Positions 1 through 8,053 of a DNA stretch of 8,053 nt are shown one piece after another. The position numbers were made by a program, and so were the translations under genes. Where the stretch lies: the IMG/VR virus record IMGVR_UViG_2563366906_000012, one strand, 5' to 3'. The notes beneath the pieces were generated by a model. That model ran no database searches and was not told the origin of the DNA. It saw nothing but the letters and a program-made list of their open reading frames with translations. Every line of letters begins with the position of its first letter. Positions within the stretch are counted from its first letter, which is position 1. This DNA is from a virus. Its lineage: Duplodnaviria; Heunggongvirae; Uroviricota; Caudoviricetes.

Positions 1-981
1 TTATAACGTCACTCCGCCTTTTAGTGGATTCAGAGCGACGGCATTTTGCAGATAGTCAGGCGCAAGGTGCGCATAGGCCATCGTCTGCTGAATGCTCGCA
101 TGTCCCAGAATCTGTTGCAGTGCGATTATATTGCCCCCATTCATCATGAAATGGCTTGCGAATGTATGCCGCAGGATGTGGGTTGCCTGATTGGGTGGTA
201 TATCAGGTTTCACTCTGCGTAAAATCCCGCAAAATTTCTCATAATTAACTTTGAATAATTTGGCGCTGGCCTCCTCTTTAACTTTTTTCTCCAGTTCCTC
301 AGAAATCGGCACGGTTCGCTTTTTACCGTTTTTGGTTTTCAGGAAGGTAACCCTGCAATTTGTAATCTGTGCTGGTTTTAGCGTGGCAACTTCCGTCCAT
401 CTTCCTCCAGTGCTCAGACATAAAAGCGCGACAAGTAAGTCATCACCAGCCAAAACATTTAACAGTTTTTCGATTTCTGCTTTTTCCAGGAACGTCATTT
501 CAGGGTTGGCCTCCGCCAGTGGCGGCAGTCCGTGAATTGGGTGTTGCCCGGAAAATTCATCCAATTGAATTAATTTTGTGAACATGCCGGATAATCGGTA
601 CATGTCACGGTTTATCGTTGCGGCACTGATACCATCACGTAGTCGCATGGAACGATAATCCATCAAAGCCCTTTTGCTCATCCTGCTCACTGGTATATCA
701 CCTATGCCGCTGATGGTTTTGAGTAGATGATTAAACTCTTTTGTTCCATGCTCGTGGTTTTGCCCGTGATATTTCCACCAGATGTCCAGCAACTCACTCA
801 AAGTCCGGCGGTCTGCTCGCTGGCCTCCCCATTCTTTCTGACTGGCATTGGCGATTGTGTATCGCTCAAATGCTAGTGCCTCAGCTTTTCTTTCGAATTT
901 CCTGCGGATGCGTTTTCCGTCGCGACCGCGAGGTCTAATGTCCACTTCATAGCGACCATCATCGAGCTTCTTAATTGCCAT
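1..981 (-). CDS. int: Tyrosine integrase, phage P2 Int type
   Basis: Minus-strand ORF 1..1011 (336 aa). The C-terminal half carries the tyrosine-recombinase signature (HILRHTFASHFMMNGG ... LGHASIQQTMAYAHL, with the conserved R/H residues and catalytic Tyr region). The internal Met (MAIKKLDDGRYEVDIRPRG) at 981 is preceded by a strong SD (GGAGGG, rc of 989-994, 7-nt spacer), so 981 is the likelier start than 1011. The gene reads leftward toward the window edge, as expected if attP lies beyond position 1. Confidence 0.9.
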   Translation of the reverse strand: MAIKKLDDGRYEVDIRPRGRDGKRIRRKFERKAEALAFERYTIANASQKEWGGQRADRRTLSELLDIWWKYHGQNHEHGTKEFNHLLKTISGIGDIPVSRMSKRALMDYRSMRLRDGISAATINRDMYRLSGMFTKLIQLDEFSGQHPIHGLPPLAEANPEMTFLEKAEIEKLLNVLAGDDLLVALLCLSTGGRWTEVATLKPAQITNCRVTFLKTKNGKKRTVPISEELEKKVKEEASAKLFKVNYEKFCGILRRVKPDIPPNQATHILRHTFASHFMMNGGNIIALQQILGHASIQQTMAYAHLAPDYLQNAVALNPLKGGVTL

Positions 982-1050
982 AAGAAAGCCCTCCGGCGCT
1001 GTATTCACCATCTTGGTAGCAAATGGTGAAAATGTAATCTTTATATAGAG

Positions 1051-1344
1051 TTAGCCAATCCTTTTCGCGGAGTGGTTGGACTCTGTTGACTCTGGCCCAA
1101 TGTGCGCGAGAGCCGGTGCGATTTGTCCTGCGTCCGGCGCGGTTTTATCTGTCATAAGCCATAGAGCATATTTTTGGAATGTGGGATGCATAGTGATTTT
1201 TAGCAAAGCTGTGCCACCGGGTTCAAAGTTTCCTCCTTCATATTTTTTAAGTGTGCTTAGCGGTAACTCTATGATTTCACAGAATTTTGATTGGCTTAGC
1301 CCTTCAGCCTCACGCAAGGCCTTAATCTTTTCGCTTAATTTCAT
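1051..1344 (-). CDS. C: Immunity repressor, P2 C-like (HTH DNA-binding protein)
   Basis: 97-aa minus-strand ORF directly upstream of int in the same orientation. The N-terminus has an HTH-like segment (LSQSKFCEIIELPLSTLKKYEGG). The C-terminal segment (YALWLMTDKTAPDAGQIAPALAHIG) matches what I recall of the P2 C repressor family. Size (P2 C is about 99 aa) and position fit. Gene symbol is by analogy to P2. Confidence 0.8.
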   Translation of the reverse strand: MKLSEKIKALREAEGLSQSKFCEIIELPLSTLKKYEGGNFEPGGTALLKITMHPTFQKYALWLMTDKTAPDAGQIAPALAHIGPESTESNHSAKRIG

Positions 1345-1926: not shown

Positions 1927-2423
1927 CAGTGATGACACTTAATCTCGTCGAAAAACAGCCAGCAGCTATGCGCCGGATAATTGGTAAGCATCTGGCCGTC
2001 CCTCGCTGGCAGGAGACATGTGATTATTATAATCAGATGATGGAACGTGAACGGCTAACGGTTTGCTTCCATGCGCAGTTAAAACAACGTCACGCAACGA
2101 TGCGTTTCGAAGAAATGAACGATGTCGAACGTGAACGGCTGGTTTGTGCAATTGATGAATTGCGTGGGGCATTCTCAAAACGCCGTCAGGTCGGTGCAAG
2201 TGAGTATGCATATATTAGTTTTTTAACAGTCAGTCAGCGGCGTACTTTATTTATGCATGCCAGATTGACAGAAAAAGAATTCAACCAGCCATACTGGCGA
2301 ATTAATGAAGAATCATGTTACTGGCGTGATGCTTTATTCCGTGCATTACGTGAATTATTCAGTCTGTTTGAGTATGCACCGACAATTCTGACATCGGTAA
2401 AACCAGAGCAATATCTGCATTAA
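1923..2423 (+). CDS. B: P2 B-like replication protein (helicase-loader-like, lagging-strand synthesis)
   Basis: 166-aa ORF, the same length as P2 B, at the P2 B position between cox/orf78 and the orf80-83 cluster. SD GGAGGGG (1910-1916) precedes ATG 1923. Assignment is from synteny, size and recalled similarity, not a search. Confidence 0.8.
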   Translation: MTVMTLNLVEKQPAAMRRIIGKHLAVPRWQETCDYYNQMMERERLTVCFHAQLKQRHATMRFEEMNDVERERLVCAIDELRGAFSKRRQVGASEYAYISFLTVSQRRTLFMHARLTEKEFNQPYWRINEESCYWRDALFRALRELFSLFEYAPTILTSVKPEQYLH

Positions 2424-2444
2424 GTAATTAACCAGAGTTTTTAA

Positions 2445-2472
2445 CGCACTTAATTGTGCGGGGCTTTTTTTT
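2445..2472 (+). terminator. Possible intrinsic terminator/attenuator between B and the next ORF
   Basis: Short hairpin CGCAC (2445-2449) / loop TTAATT / GTGCG (2456-2460), followed by GGGC and a run of 8 T (2465-2472). The stem is only 5 bp and is separated from the T-tract by 4 nt, so this is at best a weak or partial terminator. Confidence 0.3.
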
Positions 2473-2486
2473 GCCTGGAGAAAGTC

Positions 2487-2711
2487 ATGCATACAGTTTC
2501 TGAAAATCAGTGCGGTAAATACGCATTACTGCTGCAACAGGCCAGAACCGAAGCACAGGCCGACGCGGCGACGCGCTTTTCTTCTCATCTTGACGCCATG
2601 ATTCGCCACATCACAAAGGCGGAGTTATCCCGCGTGGAGATAGTCGAGCTGCTCAGTCAGGAGTCGGAAAAATTTCACAATATCGGATTGTCTCGCGGGG
2701 AGGTACTTTGA
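2487..2711 (+). CDS. Hypothetical early protein (position of P2 orf80)
   Basis: The tracked ORF starts at TTG 2454, inside the hairpin/T-run. ATG 2487 with SD GGAG (2477-2480) is the more plausible start (74 aa). The stop TGA (2709-2711) overlaps the next ATG (2711). Confidence 0.6.
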
Positions 2712-3013
2712 TGTCCTGTTCTCATTCAGTTGTATTACTGAATAACGCCTTAAAAATCGCCGTTATGAAAAATGGCGATTTGTCTCTTATTCAACTTTGT
2801 CTTGATAAAGAAAAACGCGACATAACTGAATCTGTTATCGCGATTTATCAGAATGAATTAAACCTCCTGTCTGATGTGGTCAATTTACTTGTTAAACGCG
2901 CTGTATTTCACAAGCAAATTTCCTCCGTGGATGAACTGACGAAATTAACTACAGAAATCGCCAGCTATTGCGCTGATGAATTTAAAAAACTGAACGACAA
3001 AAGGAACTGGTAA
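2711..3013 (+). CDS. Hypothetical early protein (position of P2 orf81)
   Basis: 100-aa ORF from ATG 2711 (the track begins at TTG 2708), with SD GGGAGG at 2697-2702. The stop TAA (3011-3013) overlaps the next ATG (3013-3015). No recognisable domain. Confidence 0.6.
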   Translation: MSCSHSVVLLNNALKIAVMKNGDLSLIQLCLDKEKRDITESVIAIYQNELNLLSDVVNLLVKRAVFHKQISSVDELTKLTTEIASYCADEFKKLNDKRNW

Positions 3014-3237
3014 TGCCGGACAACGTAGATTTTATTCAGGAACAACAGGCTGAATTACTGGAGCGCCAGATTAACGCGGCAAGGGTAAAACATTGCGGTG
3101 CTTCTGCGCTGGTTTGCGAAGAGTGTGACGCGCCAATACCTGCTGCCCGTCGTGCGGCTTATCCGTCAGCCACGCGTTGTGTTTCCTGTCAGGCAGTCTT
3201 TGAAGCAAAAAACAAACATTACCGGAGAACGGCATGA
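3013..3237 (+). CDS. TraR/DksA-family C4 zinc-finger protein (position of P2 orf82)
   Basis: 74-aa product with two Cys pairs, C-x2-C ... C-x2-C (VCEECDAPIPAARRAAYPSATRCVSCQ), preceded by an acidic/helical N-terminus. This is the architecture of the TraR/DksA family of RNA-polymerase secondary-channel binders. The stop overlaps the next start (ATGA at 3234-3237). Confidence 0.75.
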   Translation: MPDNVDFIQEQQAELLERQINAARVKHCGASALVCEECDAPIPAARRAAYPSATRCVSCQAVFEAKNKHYRRTA

Positions 3238-3509
3238 GTATTCGTATTGAAATTGGCGAACGTTATGTCGTTACCAGTGACAGCTTTCAGTTTATTCTCC
3301 ACGAGAAAAAGAGAGCGGAAAGCGGTAAAAACGCCGGTCAGGAATGGCTGTCGGTGGTTGGTTATTACCCGAAATTAAGCCAGCTCGTTTCCGGCCTGAT
3401 GCATCACGATATTCTGACCGGAAGCGCAAAGTCTTTTGCTGATTTAAACGCGCAGGTTGAGCAACTCAGCAAGCGTTGTTCAGAGGCTTTTGGCTCATAT
3501 GGCCGTTAA
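3234..3509 (+). CDS. Hypothetical early protein (position of P2 orf83)
   Basis: 91-aa ORF, translationally coupled upstream, whose 3-prime end overlaps the gene A start by about 11 nt. No recognisable domain. Confidence 0.6.
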   Translation: MSIRIEIGERYVVTSDSFQFILHEKKRAESGKNAGQEWLSVVGYYPKLSQLVSGLMHHDILTGSAKSFADLNAQVEQLSKRCSEAFGSYGR

Positions 3510-5778
3510 AGCCTCCGGGCGTTTTGTCCCTCCGTCAGCATTTGCCGCAGGCACCGGTAAGGCGTTTACCGGTGCTTATGCATGGAACGCGCCACGCGAG
3601 GCCGTCGGGCGCGAAAGACCCCTTACACGTGACGAGATGCGTCAGGTGCAAGGTGTTTTATCCACGATTAACCGCCTGCCTTACTTTTTGCGCTCGCTGT
3701 TTACTTCACGCTATGACTACATCCGGCGCAATAAAAGCCCGGTGCACGGGTTTTATTTCCTCACATCCACTTTTCAGCGTCGTTTATGGCCGCGCATTGA
3801 GCGCGTTAATCAGCGCCATGAAATGAACACCAACGCGTCGTTGCTGTTTCTGGCAGAGCGTGACCACTATGCGCGCCTGCCGGGGATGAATGACAAGGAG
3901 CTGAAAAAATTTGCCGCCCGTATCTCATCGCAGCTTTTCATGATGTATGAGGAACTCAGCGATGCCTGGGTGGATGCGCATGGCGAGAAAGAATCGCTGT
4001 TTACGGATGAGGCGCAGGCTCACCTGTATGGTCATGTTGCTGGCGCTGCACGAGCTTTCAATATTTCCCCTCTCTACTGGAAAAAATACCGTAAAGGGCA
4101 GATGACCACGAGGCAGGCATATTCTGCCATTACCCGCCTGTTTAACGATGAGTGGTGGACTCATCAGCTTAAAGGCCAGCGTATGCGCTGGCATGAGGCG
4201 TTACTGATTGCTGTCGGGGAGGTCAATAAAGACCGTTCTCCTTATGCCAGTAAACATGCCATTCGTGATGTGCGTGCGCGCCGCCAGGCAAATCTGGAAT
4301 TTCTTAAATCGTGTGACCTTGAAAACAGGGAAACTGGCGAGCGCATCGACCTTATCAGTAAGGTGATGGGCAGTATTTCTAATCCAGAAATTCGCCGGAT
4401 GGAGCTGATGAACACCATTGCCGGTATTGAGCGTTACGCCGCCGCAGAGGGTGATGTGGGGATGTTTATCACGCTGACCGCGCCGTCAAAGTATCACCCG
4501 ACACGTCAGGTCGGAAAAGGCGAAAGTAAAACCGTTCAGCTTAATCACGGCTGGAACGATGAGGCATTTAATCCAAAGGATGCGCAGCGTTATCTCTGCC
4601 GTATCTGGAGCCTGATGCGCACGGCATTCAAGGATAATGATTTACAGGTCTACGGTTTGCGTGTCGTCGAGCCACACCACGACGGAACGCCGCACTGGCA
4701 TATGATGCTTTTTTGTAATCCACGCCAGCGCAACCAGATTATCGAAATCATGCGTCGCTATGCGCTCAAAGAGGATGGCGACGAAAGAGGAGCCGCGCGA
4801 AACCGTTTTCAGGCAAAACACCTTAACCGGGGCGGTGCTGCGGGATATATCGCGAAATACATTTCAAAAAACATCGACGGCTATGCACTGGATGGTCAGC
4901 TCGATAACGATACCGGCAGACCGCTGAAAGACACAGCGGCGGCTGTTACCGCATGGGCGTCAACGTGGCGCATCCCGCAATTTAAAACGGTTGGCCTGCC
5001 GACAATGGGGGCTTACCGTGAACTACGCAAATTGCCTCGCGGCGTCAGTATTGCTGATGAGTTTGACGAACGCGTCGAGGCTGCTCGCGCTGCTGCAGAC
5101 AGTGGTGATTTTGCGTTGTATATCAGCGCGCAGGGTGGGGCAAATGTCCCGCGCGATTGTCAGACTGTCAGGGTTGCCCGTAGCCCGTCGGATGACGTTA
5201 ACGAGTACGAGGAAGAAGTCGAGAGAGTGGTCGGCATTTACGCGCCGCATCTCGGCGCGCGTCATATTCATATCACCAGAACGACGGACTGGCGCATTGT
5301 GCCGAAAGTGCCGGTCGTTGAGCCTTTGACTTTAAAAAGCGGCATCGCCGCGCCTCGGAGTCCTGTCAATAACTGTGGAAAGCTCACCGGTGGTGATACT
5401 TCGTTACCGGCTCCCACACCTTCTGAGCACGCCGCAGCAGTGCTTAATCTGGTTGATGACGGTGTTATTGAATGGAATGACCCGGAGGTCGTGAGGGCGC
5501 TCAGGGGCGCATTAAAACAAGGTCTGAGAAGACCAAACCGTCAGCAAAGAAACGGAAGCCCGTTAAAACAGCATGAAATGGCACCATCGGCCAGACTGAC
5601 CCGGTCAGAACGAATGCAAATTACCCGTATCCGCGTTGACCTTGCTCAGAACGGTATCAGGCCGCAGCGATGGGAGCTTGAGGCGCTGGCGCGTGGAGCA
5701 ATTGTAAATTACGACGGGAAAAAATTCACGTATCCGGTCGCTGATGAGTGGCGGGGATTCTCAGCAGTAATGGAGTGA
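3499..5778 (+). CDS. A: Rolling-circle replication initiation endonuclease, P2 gene A / HUH Rep superfamily
   Basis: The tracked ORF is 3457..5778. The likely start is ATG 3499 (MAVKASGRF), or TTG 3490, giving about 759-762 aa against 761 aa for P2 A. It carries an HUH metal-binding motif (HWH, codons 4693-4701, in EPHHDGTPHWHMMLF) and a twin-tyrosine motif YIAKY (Tyr codons 4846-4848 and 4858-4860, in AGYIAKYISKN), like the phiX174 gpA active site. Confidence 0.9.
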   Translation: MAVKASGRFVPPSAFAAGTGKAFTGAYAWNAPREAVGRERPLTRDEMRQVQGVLSTINRLPYFLRSLFTSRYDYIRRNKSPVHGFYFLTSTFQRRLWPRIERVNQRHEMNTNASLLFLAERDHYARLPGMNDKELKKFAARISSQLFMMYEELSDAWVDAHGEKESLFTDEAQAHLYGHVAGAARAFNISPLYWKKYRKGQMTTRQAYSAITRLFNDEWWTHQLKGQRMRWHEALLIAVGEVNKDRSPYASKHAIRDVRARRQANLEFLKSCDLENRETGERIDLISKVMGSISNPEIRRMELMNTIAGIERYAAAEGDVGMFITLTAPSKYHPTRQVGKGESKTVQLNHGWNDEAFNPKDAQRYLCRIWSLMRTAFKDNDLQVYGLRVVEPHHDGTPHWHMMLFCNPRQRNQIIEIMRRYALKEDGDERGAARNRFQAKHLNRGGAAGYIAKYISKNIDGYALDGQLDNDTGRPLKDTAAAVTAWASTWRIPQFKTVGLPTMGAYRELRKLPRGVSIADEFDERVEAARAAADSGDFALYISAQGGANVPRDCQTVRVARSPSDDVNEYEEEVERVVGIYAPHLGARHIHITRTTDWRIVPKVPVVEPLTLKSGIAAPRSPVNNCGKLTGGDTSLPAPTPSEHAAAVLNLVDDGVIEWNDPEVVRALRGALKQGLRRPNRQQRNGSPLKQHEMAPSARLTRSERMQITRIRVDLAQNGIRPQRWELEALARGAIVNYDGKKFTYPVADEWRGFSAVME
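5350..5375 (+). other. Candidate replication origin / A-protein nick site inside gene A
   Basis: In P2 the origin lies inside the A coding sequence. The stretch GCGCCTCGGAGTCCTGTCAATAACTG at about 5350-5375 resembles my recollection of the P2 ori nick region. This is a recollection-based placement, not verified. Confidence 0.3.
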
Positions 5779-6043
5779 ACGTCGCCAGTTGCGAAAATTA
5801 TTTACAGGGGGCAGCGTTAAGCATCTAAAGATCTTGTTCTATGATTAGAATGTTTCCTCGTTGCACTCTCGTATAGTTATTTAATGGGAAGATGTACTCT
5901 ATATGTTGTGTTTTGGTGATAAATGAAGCCAAAGGAAGGAGATTTTGCTTGATTGATGGGCGCTCTTTGCTATACACCTTGTATTGAGAAGGAGAAGTAA
6001 TCAAGGATTAAGCTGGCTTTTGTCAAAAATCTGAAAAGCTTTT

Positions 6044-6073
6044 TTGACTGAATACGATAGCGAGTTGTACTAT
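6044..6073 (+). promoter_or_regulatory. Candidate sigma70 promoter for the cargo cassette (-35 TTGACT 6044-6049, 18-nt spacer, -10 TACTAT 6068-6073)
   Basis: By-eye hexamer match about 35 nt upstream of the first cargo ATG (6108). It sits in an AT-rich spacer and is immediately preceded by nested palindromes (GTCAAAAA ... TTTTTGAC around 6022-6049; AAAAGCTTTT at about 6033-6042). Confidence 0.4.
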
Positions 6074-6107
6074 TTGCGCCCTCAAAAGTAACCGGCGGCT
6101 GGGTAAA

Positions 6108-6488
6108 ATGGGGAAGCAAGGCAAAGGCAAAGGCAAAGGCAACAAAAATCAGGTTAAGGTTACGTGGGCTCAGGCGTGGCGGGATGTAATGATAAGAGCC
6201 ATGTCTAATGGTCAGTTGATACCTATTACCATCAGTATTATTTTAATGATTGCTGCATGGAGGTTACCAAAAACTGACTTGTCCAATTTAGCCTTCTCTA
6301 TTGTTGATGGCTTTAAGGAGCATTCCTTGGTTGGTTGGGCTATCTCGGTAATAGTGGGTTTGGCTTGGTCTGCACATGCGCGAATCATGAGGCGCTGTTT
6401 TAGTTCCGAGGCACAGAGAATCGGTAACGAGAAAACAAAGTATCAACAAAGACAGACCACTCAAGCCTTGGGTACAAGTGATAAATAG
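6108..6488 (+). CDS. Hypothetical small membrane protein with Gly-Lys repeat N-terminus (cargo gene 1)
   Basis: 126-aa ORF. The N-terminus MGKQGKGKGKGNKNQ is encoded by the in-frame hexanucleotide repeat GGCAAA. There are two hydrophobic helices (about residues 36-52, LIPITISIILMIAAW, and 73-90, LVGWAISVIVGLAWSA) and a basic/polar C-terminal tail. AT-rich relative to the phage backbone. No recognisable family. Confidence 0.6.
   Translation: MGKQGKGKGKGNKNQVKVTWAQAWRDVMIRAMSNGQLIPITISIILMIAAWRLPKTDLSNLAFSIVDGFKEHSLVGWAISVIVGLAWSAHARIMRRCFSSEAQRIGNEKTKYQQRQTTQALGTSDK
6114..6143 (+). repeat. In-frame hexanucleotide tandem repeat (GGCAAA x3 perfect, with flanking degenerate copies) encoding (GK)n
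   Basis: Direct reading: aag caa ggc aaa ggc aaa ggc aaa ggc aac. The perfect copies span 6120-6137. Confidence 0.8.
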
Positions 6489-6508
6489 TTGTTTATTTAG
6501 GAGTTATT

Positions 6509-7066
6509 ATGCTGACAGTGCTGTTTTATGTGCTGTTGGGTTTAGGCGCAGCACACTTCATTTACGAGCGAATCATTTTGCCGTCCATCCGACTTCATTA
6601 TAGAAACCAATTGTTTGCGCTTCGTGATGTCGCTAGGAGGAAAATCATTGATGGAGGTTCCGATACTTCCATGCAAGCGGCAACACTTGTGCATGACTCA
6701 TTGAATAACGCTATCAATAGATTGCATTTACTCACGTTGCCAAACAAATTTCGTGCTCAAAAGCGTATGGCAGAAAACCATGCAATAAGGCAGAAAATTC
6801 GGCGTGAGATAGATGTTTTCAAACGCTGTGATGATAGAGAAGTTGTTGATGTACTGTTTAAATCCGGTCGGATACTTGAAAATGTACTGTTATTCAATAG
6901 CTTAATGTTATTGCTTTACATGTTTCCATTTGTCCTTGCTGTATGGTTCTGTGTTAGGGTCATAAAGACAGCAAGTAGTTTAGTACAGTGGGTCAAAGGA
7001 AGAGATTTAGAGGAAGCTATAATGCTGCTTCCTGATACTCAGGTTGAAAAGGTTGTATACGCATAA
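6509..7066 (+). CDS. Hypothetical membrane protein, N- and C-terminal hydrophobic helices flanking a charged central domain (cargo gene 2)
   Basis: 185-aa ORF with a strong SD (AGGAG 6499-6503, 5-nt spacer). Hydrophobic segments at about residues 2-24 (LTVLFYVLLGLGAAHFIY) and 126-152 (VLLFNSLMLLLYMFPFVLAVWFCVRVI), with a roughly 100-residue Arg/Lys/Asp-rich region between. It starts 20 nt after cargo gene 1, so the two are probably an operon. No recognisable family. Confidence 0.65.
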   Translation: MLTVLFYVLLGLGAAHFIYERIILPSIRLHYRNQLFALRDVARRKIIDGGSDTSMQAATLVHDSLNNAINRLHLLTLPNKFRAQKRMAENHAIRQKIRREIDVFKRCDDREVVDVLFKSGRILENVLLFNSLMLLLYMFPFVLAVWFCVRVIKTASSLVQWVKGRDLEEAIMLLPDTQVEKVVYA

Positions 7067-7134
7067 AAATCACCCCTTAGGGGGTAATGCCGATCAGTTA
7101 AGGATCAGTTGACCGATCCAGTGGCTGTGTAAGA

Positions 7135-7168
7135 ATCCGGAAACGCTCACTCGTTTCCGGATTTTTTT
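7135..7168 (+). terminator. Strong intrinsic-terminator-like hairpin inside the IS left end, immediately before the transposase ATG
   Basis: Perfect 11-bp stem ATCCGGAAACG (7135-7145) / CGTTTCCGGAT (7152-7162), 6-nt loop, followed by TTTTTT (7163-7168) and then ATG at 7169. Confidence 0.6.
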
Positions 7169-8053
7169 ATGCACATTGGACAGGCCCTTGATTTGGTATC
7201 CCGTTACGATTCTCTGCGTAACCCACTGACTTCTCTGGGGGATTACCTCGACCCCGAACTCATCTCTCGTTGCCTTGCCGAATCAGGTACTGTAACGCTA
7301 CACAAGCGCCGTCTTCCCCTCGAAATGATGGTCTGGTGTATTGTTGGCATGGCGCTTGAGCGTAAAGAACCTCTTCACCAGATTGTGAATCGCCTGGACA
7401 TCATGCTGCCGGGCAATCGCCCCTTCGTTGCCCCCAGTGCCGTTATTCAGGCCCGCCAGCGCCTGGGAAGTGAGGCTGTCCGCCGCGTGTTCACGAAAAC
7501 AGCGCAGCTCTGGCATAACGCCACGCCGCATCCGCAATGGTGCGGCCTGACCCTGCTGGCCATCGATGGTGTGTTCTGGCGCACACCGGATACACCAGAG
7601 AACGATGCAGCCTTCCCCCGCCAGACACATGCCGGGAACCCGGCGCTCTACCCGCAGGTCAAAATGGTCTGCCAGATGGAACTGACCAGCCATCTGCTGA
7701 CGGCTGCAGCCTTCGGCACGATGAAGAACAGCGAAAATGAGCTTGCTGAGCAACTTATAGAACAAACCGGCGATAACACTCTGACGTTAATGGACAAAGG
7801 TTATTACTCACTGGGACTGTTAAATGCCTGGAGCCTGGCGGGAGAACACCGCCACTGGATGATCCCTCTCAGAAAGGGAGCGCAATATGAAGAGATCAGA
7901 AAACTGGGTAAAGGCGATCATCTGGTGAAGCTGAAAACCAGCCCGCAGGCACGAAAAAAGTGGCCGGGACTGGGAAATGAGGTGACAGCCCGCCTGCTGA
8001 CCGTGACGCGCAAAGGAAAAGTCTGCCATCTGCTGACGTCGATGACGGACGCC
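7169..8053 (+). CDS. insG: IS4 transposase (DDE family), N-terminal 295 codons; truncated by the window end
   Basis: Hand translation from ATG 7169 gives an uninterrupted reading frame to the window end ([86 protein letters not shown] ... [15 protein letters not shown] ... [16 protein letters not shown] ...), which I recognise as IS4 InsG. It is absent from the supplied ORF track because there is no stop within the window. Confidence 0.9.

What the first reader, a model, noticed from the sequence alone, without database searches (positions are those of the whole stretch)
6044..7084. Unrecognised two-gene membrane-protein cassette in the position of the P2 tin/old anti-phage locus
In P2 the segment after gene A carries the accessory anti-phage genes tin and old, and this A-proximal position is a known variable cargo site in P2-like prophages. 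Here it holds two co-oriented genes (6108-6488 and 6509-7066) with their own candidate promoter, neither of which I can assign to a family. Both products are predicted membrane proteins, and the block is AT-richer than the phage backbone (spot counts on 60-nt stretches gave about 37% GC in the cargo against about 52% in gene A). Small membrane-protein pairs at such sites are plausible superinfection-exclusion or abortive-infection effectors. That functional call is inference from context only.
Basis: partly seen in the sequence, partly recalled or inferred. Interest (0 to 1): 0.85.

Follow-up and report, generated by a model that had tools for sequence, protein, structure and literature searches.

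The report
Known P2 defence cassette, IS4-split
The two membrane-protein genes are the first two genes of a published anti-phage locus ("2TM + 1TM + TIR") of P2-like phage AC1, cut off here from the third gene by an IS4 insertion. Comparison with other genomes shows that the pair travels on its own, without the TIR gene, in many other prophages and bacteria.

Summary
In detail: ORFs 6108-6488 and 6509-7066 exist, are co-oriented and AT-richer than gene A, and lie between gene A and the portal gene of a P2-like prophage.

They are not unrecognised. Both match PADLOC models full length (2TM-TIR 7e-58, 1TM-TIR 3e-75). Both are residue-for-residue identical to proteins 1 and 2 of plasmid pFD240 ("2TM + 1TM + TIR", phage AC1; Rousset et al. 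2022). That three-gene clone protected E. coli against lambda, LF82_P8 and P2.

The window is identical to an E. coli scaffold (KB732428.1). There an IS4 sits in the terminator hairpin just after gene 2, with a 12-bp duplication. The intact TIR gene follows about 1.65 kb further on, outside the window.

New here: the "three-gene system" looks like adjacent independent modules.
- In every lineage other than the AC1 type, the pair occurs without TIR. This holds in P2-like, lambdoid and other elements, across several phyla, and the 1TM family has about 1,000 clusters.
- The closest TIR relatives sit alone in the same hotspot.
- Each module has its own upstream region, and the pair has its own terminator.

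The pair's biochemical function is still unknown. No fold or profile search gave a lead. No published experiment separates the pair from TIR.

The parts
5843..6107 (+). Upstream regulatory region of the pair module. It contains a conserved block (TTGATT...TATACA, about 5949-5976) and the promoter-like site at 6044-6073.
   Evidence: The pFD240 insert of Rousset et al. starts at window 5843. Homology with pair-only P2-like hotspots starts at about window 5899. Conservation is shown in alignment A5.
6044..6073 (+). Sigma-70-type promoter-like site, TTGACT-18-TACTAT.
   Evidence: Found by the scan (9 of 12 positions match, which is not significant alone). Conserved in the window and in L025-L028 despite divergent flanks.
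6108..6488 (+). Gene for the '2TM' protein (126 aa). It has a Lys/Gly-rich N-terminus, two hydrophobic helices and a highly conserved C-terminal tail (MRRCFSxEAxRIGxEKT...LGTSDK).
   Evidence: PADLOC PDLC02978, 6.9e-58, full length. phrog_33772. Identical to pFD240 protein 1. Alignment A2. The AF2 model is weak, pLDDT 62.7.
6509..7066 (+). Gene for the '1TM' protein (185 aa). It is all-helical, with an N-terminal and a C-proximal hydrophobic helix flanking a helical domain. Invariant residues in the 29-sequence alignment A1: H16, Y19, E20, P25, R28, L29, R32, L35, F36, D40, R43, N66, N67, N70, L72, N130, Y137, P140.
   Evidence: PADLOC PDLC02977, 2.7e-75. phrog_24550. Identical to pFD240 protein 2. 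Alignment A1. AF2 pLDDT 85.8. 1,036 representative clusters in the profile search.
7065..7084 (+). Left half of the pair's rho-independent terminator (intact form AAAAATCACCCCTTAGGGGGTGATTTTTTT). Bases 7073-7084 (CCCCTTAGGGGG) are the left copy of the 12-bp IS4 target duplication.
   Evidence: Comparison with the intact locus L002 and with the right junction in L010. The terminator is conserved in pair-only loci.
7085..8053 (+). IS4, left end and the first 295 codons of its transposase (ATG at 7169). The window stops where a run of N (scaffold gap) begins inside IS4.
   Evidence: 98-99% identical to annotated IS4 copies in E. coli genomes. Pfam Nterm_IS4/DDE_Tnp_1. Junctions and duplication.

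Best explanation
The finding is the '2TM + 1TM' part of the published AC1-type cargo of the P2 gpA-gpQ hotspot. DefenseFinder lists it as Rst_2TM_1TM_TIR; the PADLOC models are 2TM-TIR, 1TM-TIR and TIR-TM.

Shown here:
1. The two proteins are identical to those of the validated clone.
2. In this strain an IS4 has inserted into the terminator hairpin directly after gene 2. It pushes the intact TIR gene about 1.65 kb downstream, beyond the window.
3. The two genes form a self-contained, co-inherited operon with a conserved promoter-like element, close or overlapping reading frames and their own terminator. This operon moves independently of TIR.
4. The AC1 hotspot is a concatenation of three modules: pair, TIR, and ORF94/ORF305.

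Inferred:
1. The two products form an inner-membrane complex, made constitutively in the lysogen.
2. This complex acts at the membrane against incoming phage, by blocking injection or collapsing the membrane, without needing a TIR-made signal.
3. The neighbouring TIR protein is a separate single-gene NAD-consuming defence.
4. The IS4 insertion probably leaves both units expressed. It lies upstream of the conserved ~115-bp TIR leader and downstream of the gene 2 stop codon.

Confidence by step: identity with the AC1 system about 0.97; modular independence about 0.8; the pair alone being anti-phage about 0.45.
For: Identity:
- PADLOC full-length hits.
- DNA 5779-7085 is 100% identical to phage P2_AC1.
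- The proteins are identical to pFD240 proteins 1 and 2.
- The window is identical to L010 with 0 mismatches, and L010 carries IS4 followed by an intact TIR gene.

Modularity:
- All 41 loci that carry a 1TM homologue have a 2TM homologue directly upstream (tblastn). With profile HMMs the same holds for seven of the eight loci added afterwards (L050-L054, L056, L057); L055 has no detectable partner at E<=1e-3.
- TIR is present only where the 1TM protein is 100% identical to the window's (the AC1 type). All 26 other loci (1TM 42-86% identical, about 9 lineages) lack it, and so do the eight loci added later.
- In P2-likes L025-28, L031-34 and L018-20 the pair sits between gpA and the portal gene without TIR.
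- In lambdoid prophages it lies between Q and the holin, or between the lysis genes and the terminase.
- The closest TIR relatives (78% and 74% identical) sit alone between gpA and the portal gene. A 60% relative sits alone in the Serratia chromosome.
- blastn breakpoints fall in intergenic DNA.
- The TIR leader is conserved with TIR-only loci.
- The pair's terminator is conserved with pair-only loci.
- Divergence of the 2TM and 1TM proteins is correlated (rho 0.95).
- The 1TM family has 1,036 clusters at 50% identity. Members occur in Beta- and Gammaproteobacteria, Bacteroidota and Verrucomicrobiota.

Link to defence:
- The three-gene clone is protective.
- Distant pairs sit at a prophage edge, in an integrative element and next to an MmeI-type restriction-modification gene.
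- Single-protein TIR systems are validated in E. coli (PMC11350192).
- TIR residue E76 is invariant.
Against: - No experiment separates the genes. Rousset et al. cloned all three together and report no deletions, so the pair may contribute nothing, or may need TIR in the AC1 context.
- The pair matches no domain or fold of known function, so the membrane-exclusion mechanism rests on context only.
- Absence of TIR was tested with tblastn and with one TIR-family HMM. A very different partner encoded elsewhere in the genome would not be seen.
- Promoter and terminator calls are consensus matches plus conservation, not transcript data.
- Many loci are near-duplicates, so the independent evidence is about 9 enterobacterial lineages plus 8 distant loci.
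Confidence: 0.75

Rival explanations
1. The published model: a single three-component system. The TIR protein senses infection and makes a nucleotide messenger, which activates the two membrane proteins as cell-killing effectors (Thoeris-like logic).
For: The three genes are adjacent and co-oriented in all AC1-type loci. The three-gene clone protects. The authors propose this model. PADLOC holds three matching models.
Against: - Co-occurrence is limited to one near-clonal lineage.
- Every other pair lacks TIR, and the nearest TIR relatives lack the pair. Protein architectures are unchanged in both cases.
- A terminator and a separate conserved leader lie between gene 2 and TIR.
- About 1,500 TIR homologues were found against 49 (1TM) and 24 (2TM) in the same kind of search.
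- Neither membrane protein has a recognisable nucleotide-binding domain.
Confidence: 0.15
2. The pair is not a defence unit. The AC1 phenotype comes from TIR alone, and the pair is a moron with another role, such as prophage or host membrane physiology, an addiction module, or control of lysis timing.
For: Single-protein TIR systems are sufficient in E. coli. The pair has no defence-related domain. In lambdoid prophages it sits beside the lysis cassette. Some distant copies are in plain chromosomal context.
Against: - The pair recurs at three different moron or defence sites of unrelated prophage types and next to a restriction-modification gene.
- The host phages already have complete lysis cassettes.
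- There are no holin, spanin or antiholin family hits.
Confidence: 0.3
3. In this strain the cassette is a decaying remnant. The IS4 insertion has inactivated the locus, by polar effects on the pair or by silencing TIR.
For: IS4 sits in the pair's terminator. A sister locus, L009, has a truncated TIR and an IS1 in ORF305. IS1 and IS4 insertions are a documented escape route from toxic TIR systems.
Against: All three ORFs are intact and 100% identical to the functional AC1 alleles. The insertion lies after the gene 2 stop codon and about 220 bp upstream of the TIR start. That is outside the ~115-bp leader shared with TIR-only loci.
Confidence: 0.15

Closest known systems
'2TM + 1TM + TIR' system of P2-like phage AC1 (Rousset et al. 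2022, pFD240; DefenseFinder Rst_2TM_1TM_TIR; PADLOC PDLC02978 / 02977 / 03016)
   Same: Proteins 1 and 2 are identical. The DNA from the gpA stop codon to the terminator is identical. The hotspot is the same. An identical TIR gene is present on the source scaffold.
   Different: IS4 (with a 12-bp duplication) separates gene 2 from TIR, so the window holds only two of the three genes. My comparisons indicate that the 'system' is a juxtaposition of independently mobile modules.
Thoeris and other TIR-signalling defences (TIR sensor plus an effector activated by an ADPR-derived messenger)
   Same: A TIR protein with the invariant catalytic-type glutamate lies next to candidate membrane effectors. 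This is the logic the original authors proposed.
   Different: Neither membrane protein has a SLOG, Macro or other ligand-binding domain. The TIR gene and the pair are not co-inherited outside one lineage.
Prophage membrane exclusion or abortive-infection modules (lambda RexAB, P22 SieA/SieB, HK97 gp15, T4 Imm/Sp). This comparison comes from general knowledge and was not tested by homology.
   Same: Small inner-membrane proteins encoded at prophage moron sites, expressed in the lysogen, and associated with resistance to other phages.
   Different: There is no sequence or fold similarity. The mechanism and even the defence role of the pair alone are untested.
P2 tin / old
   Same: Same genomic position (between gene A and cos/gene Q) and the same role as variable anti-phage cargo.
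   Different: Unrelated proteins. Old is an ATPase-nuclease and Tin a soluble exclusion protein (general knowledge).

Membership tests
Rst_2TM_1TM_TIR (AC1 system, Rousset 2022 / PADLOC) | First gene encodes the 2TM component. | tested here: met
   PDLC02978, 6.9e-58, residues 1-126 against model positions 1-124 of 124. Identical to pFD240 protein 1.
Rst_2TM_1TM_TIR (AC1 system, Rousset 2022 / PADLOC) | Second gene encodes the 1TM component. | tested here: met
   PDLC02977, 2.7e-75, full length. Identical to pFD240 protein 2.
Rst_2TM_1TM_TIR (AC1 system, Rousset 2022 / PADLOC) | A TIR-domain gene lies directly downstream. | tested here: met
   Not in the window. On the source scaffold (L010 12722-13666) the gene is intact, identical to pFD240 protein 3, matches PDLC03016 at 2.7e-118 and matches Pfam TIR_2. 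It is displaced by IS4.
Rst_2TM_1TM_TIR (AC1 system, Rousset 2022 / PADLOC) | Located in the gpA-gpQ hotspot of a P2-like prophage. | tested here: met
   gpA lies at 3457-5778. The portal gene lies downstream on the scaffold.
Rst_2TM_1TM_TIR (AC1 system, Rousset 2022 / PADLOC) | Anti-phage activity. | not testable with these tools
   Published for the identical three-gene insert against lambda, LF82_P8 and P2 (PMC9122126).
Rst_2TM_1TM_TIR (AC1 system, Rousset 2022 / PADLOC) | All three genes act together as one system. | tested here: inconclusive
   No deletions are published. Phyletic patterns and module breakpoints argue against obligate linkage. Function was not assayed.
Thoeris-like TIR signalling system | The effector carries a domain that binds the TIR product and is co-inherited with the TIR gene. 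| tested here: not met
   Neither membrane protein has a known domain. TIR and the pair co-occur in only one lineage.
Phage lysis proteins (holin / antiholin / spanin) | Sequence membership of a holin or spanin family, and a role as the phage's lysis gene. | tested here: not met
   No Pfam hit. The PHROG families have unknown function. The host prophages carry separate, complete lysis cassettes.
IS4 | Terminal inverted repeats, an 11-13 bp target duplication and an IS4-type DDE transposase. | tested here: met
   Ends TAATGCC...GGCATTA and a 12-bp duplication CCCCTTAGGGGG. 98-99% identical to annotated IS4 copies. Pfam Nterm_IS4 and DDE_Tnp_1.

The most novel reading that the evidence does not exclude
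The 2TM-1TM pair is by itself a complete membrane-embedded anti-phage (exclusion or abortive) system. It is widespread: about 1,000 clusters at 50% identity, spanning Proteobacteria, Bacteroidota and Verrucomicrobiota, mostly on prophages and other mobile elements. Current catalogues would then detect it only in the rare AC1 arrangement, because they define it together with an unrelated, independently acting single-gene TIR defence.
Probability: 0.4. Interest if true: 0.6.

Novelty: already known. Interest (0 to 1): 0.35.

Why it matters
As a locus this is a re-discovery. The same DNA was cloned and shown to protect E. coli in 2022, and defence-system finders already carry models for it.

What may matter is the correction to how it is filed. 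If the pair and the TIR gene are separate units, two things follow:
1. The proposed messenger-to-membrane-effector model for this system is probably wrong.
2. Tools that require all three genes would overlook a large two-gene family found in many phyla and prophage types.

The question can be settled with three deletion constructs of an existing plasmid.

Tried and rejected
- Pfam on both proteins and on all 29 1TM homologues: only scattered sub-threshold hits.
- Profile searches of the PDB with both families: nothing below E = 0.6.
- Foldseek against viral structures: nothing at E <= 0.001.
- The afdb50 library was unavailable.
- The 2TM model was too poor to search (pLDDT 62.7).
- A holin/spanin reading was rejected (no family hits; lysis cassettes are complete elsewhere).
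- Minus-strand ORFs 7298-7765 and 7820-8029 are antisense to the IS4 transposase and were dismissed.
- The exact IS4 junction was not found in any of 5,426 complete E. coli genomes. It was found only in the draft source scaffold.
- The first genome contigs attempt, with a 54-sequence alignment, failed for lack of a conserved stretch. The narrower alignment returned only 6 loci, so taxonomic breadth is sampled, not measured.
- The Nat Commun 2024 TIR survey could not be mapped to this TIR protein because its supplements are not held.

Full report
**What is in the window.** The window is the left arm of a P2-like prophage. It holds the integrase (1-1011, minus strand), a C-type repressor (1051-1344, minus strand), cox (1466-1753), several small early genes and replication gene A (3457-5778; Pfam Phage_GPA 1e-123). 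After gene A come the two ORFs of the finding, 6108-6488 (126 aa) and 6509-7066 (185 aa), on the same strand. The cargo block 5779-7084 is 41.1% GC against 53.8% for gene A. Hydropathy gives one strong and one weaker hydrophobic stretch in ORF1, and two in ORF2. The observation therefore stands.

From base 7085 the sequence is IS4, with its left inverted repeat and a transposase ORF starting at 7169. It is 98-99% identical to annotated IS4 copies.

**Identity.** Pfam finds nothing in either protein. PADLOC matches both full length: PDLC02978 '2TM-TIR' at 6.9e-58 and PDLC02977 '1TM-TIR' at 2.7e-75. The DNA 5779-7085 is 100% identical to Escherichia phage P2_AC1 (OV192280).

Rousset et al. 2022 (PMC9122126) isolated P2-like phage AC1 and showed that the lysogen resists lambda and LF82_P8. 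[quoted passage not shown] The clone reproduced the protection and also restricted P2. Their Table S2A prints the insert and the three proteins. Proteins 1 and 2 equal the window's ORFs residue for residue, and the insert starts at window 5843. The cassette is thus already published and already in defence-system catalogues, including as Rst_2TM_1TM_TIR.

**Where the third gene went.** An exact-protein look-up found the source: E. coli assembly GCA_000350985.1, scaffold KB732428.1 (locus L010). The window matches it with 0 mismatches, and the window ends exactly where a run of N inside IS4 begins.

In intact loci, gene 2 is followed by a rho-independent terminator, AAAAATCACCCCTTAGGGGGTGATTTTTTT. 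A 240-bp spacer and a 315-aa TIR gene follow. In the source scaffold IS4 sits inside the hairpin and is flanked by a 12-bp duplication, CCCCTTAGGGGG. The remainder of the terminator and an intact TIR gene follow it, and that gene is identical to pFD240 protein 3. None of 5,426 complete E. coli genomes carries this junction. Fourteen of them carry the uninterrupted AC1-type locus.

**Is it really one three-gene system?** I collected loci through exact-protein look-ups, viral contigs, GTDB genomes and complete E. coli genomes, then scanned them with tblastn and profile HMMs. Three results stand out.

1. *The two membrane-protein genes are always together.*
 - In all 41 loci a 2TM homologue lies directly upstream of the 1TM homologue.
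 - Among the more distant metagenomic and cross-phylum loci, 7 of 8 keep the pair. The reading frames often overlap by 4 bp, and L051 carries an uncalled 122-aa ORF that is a 2TM homologue.
 - Divergence of the two proteins is tightly correlated (Spearman 0.95).

2. *TIR accompanies the pair only in the near-clonal AC1 type.* The other lineages are about nine enterobacterial ones with 1TM 42-86% identical, plus the distant loci. All of them lack it.
 - In several P2-likes the pair is the only cargo between gpA and the portal gene (for example L027, L028, L033 and the Proteus loci L018-20).
 - In Klebsiella lambdoid prophages it sits between antiterminator Q and the holin.
 - In E. coli prophages such as that of O91 RM7190 it sits between the lysis genes and the HNH/terminase genes.

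3. *The converse holds for TIR.*
 - The TIR protein has about 1,500 homologues in the word-index search, against 49 for 1TM and 24 for 2TM.
 - Its closest relatives (78% in E. coli, 74% in Klebsiella) sit alone between gpA and the portal gene. A 60% relative sits alone in the Serratia chromosome.
 - Their architecture is unchanged: they give full-length matches to PDLC03016.

**Module boundaries.** blastn of the hotspots against each other puts the breakpoints in intergenic DNA. Coordinates below are in L002; add 3498 for window coordinates.
- Pair-only P2-likes share about 2401-3656 with AC1, then jump to the backbone just before the portal gene.
- TIR-only P2-likes share 3693-4995, then jump to the same backbone.
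- A third block, 4996-6453, holds a 94-aa ORF in some strains and a 305-aa ORF with one hydrophobic helix. Neither has a Pfam or PADLOC match, and the block is specific to the AC1 type.

The ~115 bp upstream of the TIR start codon are conserved with TIR-only loci. The pair's terminator is conserved with, or replaced by an analogous hairpin in, pair-only loci. The promoter-like TTGACT-18-TACTAT at 6044-6073 is not above chance on its own. It is, however, conserved across five diverged copies whose flanks differ.

The pFD240 insert runs from window 5843 to about 390 bp past the TIR stop codon. It contains the first two modules and not the third. The paper reports no single-gene deletions. The published phenotype therefore cannot be assigned to either module.

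**Breadth of the pair.** A profile of 29 1TM sequences, scored against 1.84 billion representative proteins, finds 1,036 clusters at E <= 1e-3 and 783 at E <= 1e-10. The best 150 listed are 162-194 aa long. Sampled members come from an Alcaligenaceae genome, Aquimarina, Flammeovirga, an Opitutales MAG and gammaproteobacterial MAGs. Their neighbours include:
- a phage lysozyme at a prophage edge;
- an MmeI-type restriction-modification enzyme;
- a primase-AAA / GP88 / integrase element;
- DUF3800 with a Mutator-family transposase;
- an AAA_14/DUF4143 ATPase.

This fits an accessory gene pair of mobile elements and is compatible with defence. It does not prove defence.

**What the proteins look like.**
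- *1TM.* The model is confident (pLDDT 85.8) and all-helical. A long N-terminal helix (2-48) starts as the first hydrophobic segment. A helical domain follows, and then a second hydrophobic helix (132-162). Invariant polar residues cluster at and just after the first helix (H16, Y19, E20, P25, R28, R32, D40, R43) and in an NNxxN motif (N66, N67, N70).
- *2TM.* The N-terminus is Lys/Gly-rich. The C-terminal tail is strikingly conserved (MRRCFSxEAxRIGxEKTxxQQ...LGTSDK). The model is weak.

**Most likely mechanism.** The pair is transcribed from its own promoter in the lysogen, its translation is coupled, and the products form an inner-membrane complex. I consider it most likely that this complex acts against incoming phage at the membrane, either by blocking genome entry or by abortive collapse of the membrane, and that it does so independently of TIR. 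The adjacent TIR protein would be a separate single-gene NAD-consuming defence. Its WxNFEAG glutamate, E76, is invariant in 120 homologues. Single-protein TIR defences have been validated in E. coli (PMC11350192).

My confidence is about 0.8 for independence of the modules and about 0.45 for the pair being anti-phage on its own. The published messenger-to-effector model remains possible for the AC1 combination, but the phyletic and structural evidence disfavours it (about 0.15).

**The IS4 insertion.** It lies after the gene 2 stop codon and upstream of the conserved TIR leader, and all ORFs are intact. Both units are therefore probably still expressed, although transcripts from the pair promoter should now read into IS4.

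A sister locus (L009) has a truncated TIR gene and an IS1 in the 305-aa ORF. The TIR survey paper reports IS1 and IS4 insertions as the escape route when a TIR system becomes toxic. Insertional erosion of the TIR side of this hotspot is thus a reasonable, untested reading.

**Verdict.** 'Unrecognised' is wrong, and the IS4 and TIR context was missed. As a locus it is already known. The useful by-product is evidence that the catalogued three-gene system is a mosaic, and that its membrane pair is a widespread autonomous module of unknown mechanism.

Noticed in passing
window 7065-7095; L010 12480-12520; L014 1180-1230 and 2640-2680: IS4 inserted exactly into the GC-rich stem-loop of a rho-independent terminator, duplicating CCCCTTAGGGGG. 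An unrelated IS4 copy between fumC and fumB in another E. coli also sits in an A-run/CCCCGAAGGGGGG hairpin, with the hairpin duplicated. This fits IS4's reputed strong preference for palindromic AAA-N20-TTT-like targets (the preference is recalled from memory).
   Followed up: partly
window 8053 (end); L010 11947 onwards: The window ends exactly at a run of N inside IS4 in the source scaffold KB732428.1. The IS4 length there (1,511 bp against 1,426 bp in a finished genome) is an artefact of the gap, and the 295-aa 'transposase' call is a truncation by that gap.
   Followed up: yes
window 6117-6140: The N-terminus of the 2TM protein is encoded by a GGCAAA hexanucleotide repeat whose copy number varies between strains. 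The resulting proteins are 124, 126 and 128 aa long (strain D7, this window, P0050). The change is in frame, so it alters length but is not a phase switch.
   Followed up: partly
L010 14423-15340 (outside the window); L005 12614-12898: A third AC1-specific block lies downstream of TIR. It holds a 305-aa ORF with one N-terminal hydrophobic helix and, in some strains, a 94-aa ORF. GC is about 35%, and there are no Pfam or PADLOC hits. It was not included in the published clone pFD240, and its function is unknown.
   Followed up: partly
L009 11199-14017: In one genome (GCA_974498275.1) the pair is intact, but the TIR gene is called as only 151 aa and the 305-aa ORF is interrupted by IS1. With the IS4 here, this suggests recurrent insertional erosion of the TIR side of the hotspot.
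   Followed up: no
L051 4636-5004: A 122-aa 2TM homologue overlaps the 1TM gene by 4 bp but was not called as a gene in the metagenome annotation. Small partner genes of this family are probably under-annotated.
   Followed up: partly
window 5893-5979: A second conserved non-coding block lies upstream of the pair (CAC.ATATGT.GTGT ... TTGATT-16-TATACA). It is shared by diverged P2-like copies and could be a second promoter or an operator. The scan tool did not call it as a promoter.
   Followed up: no
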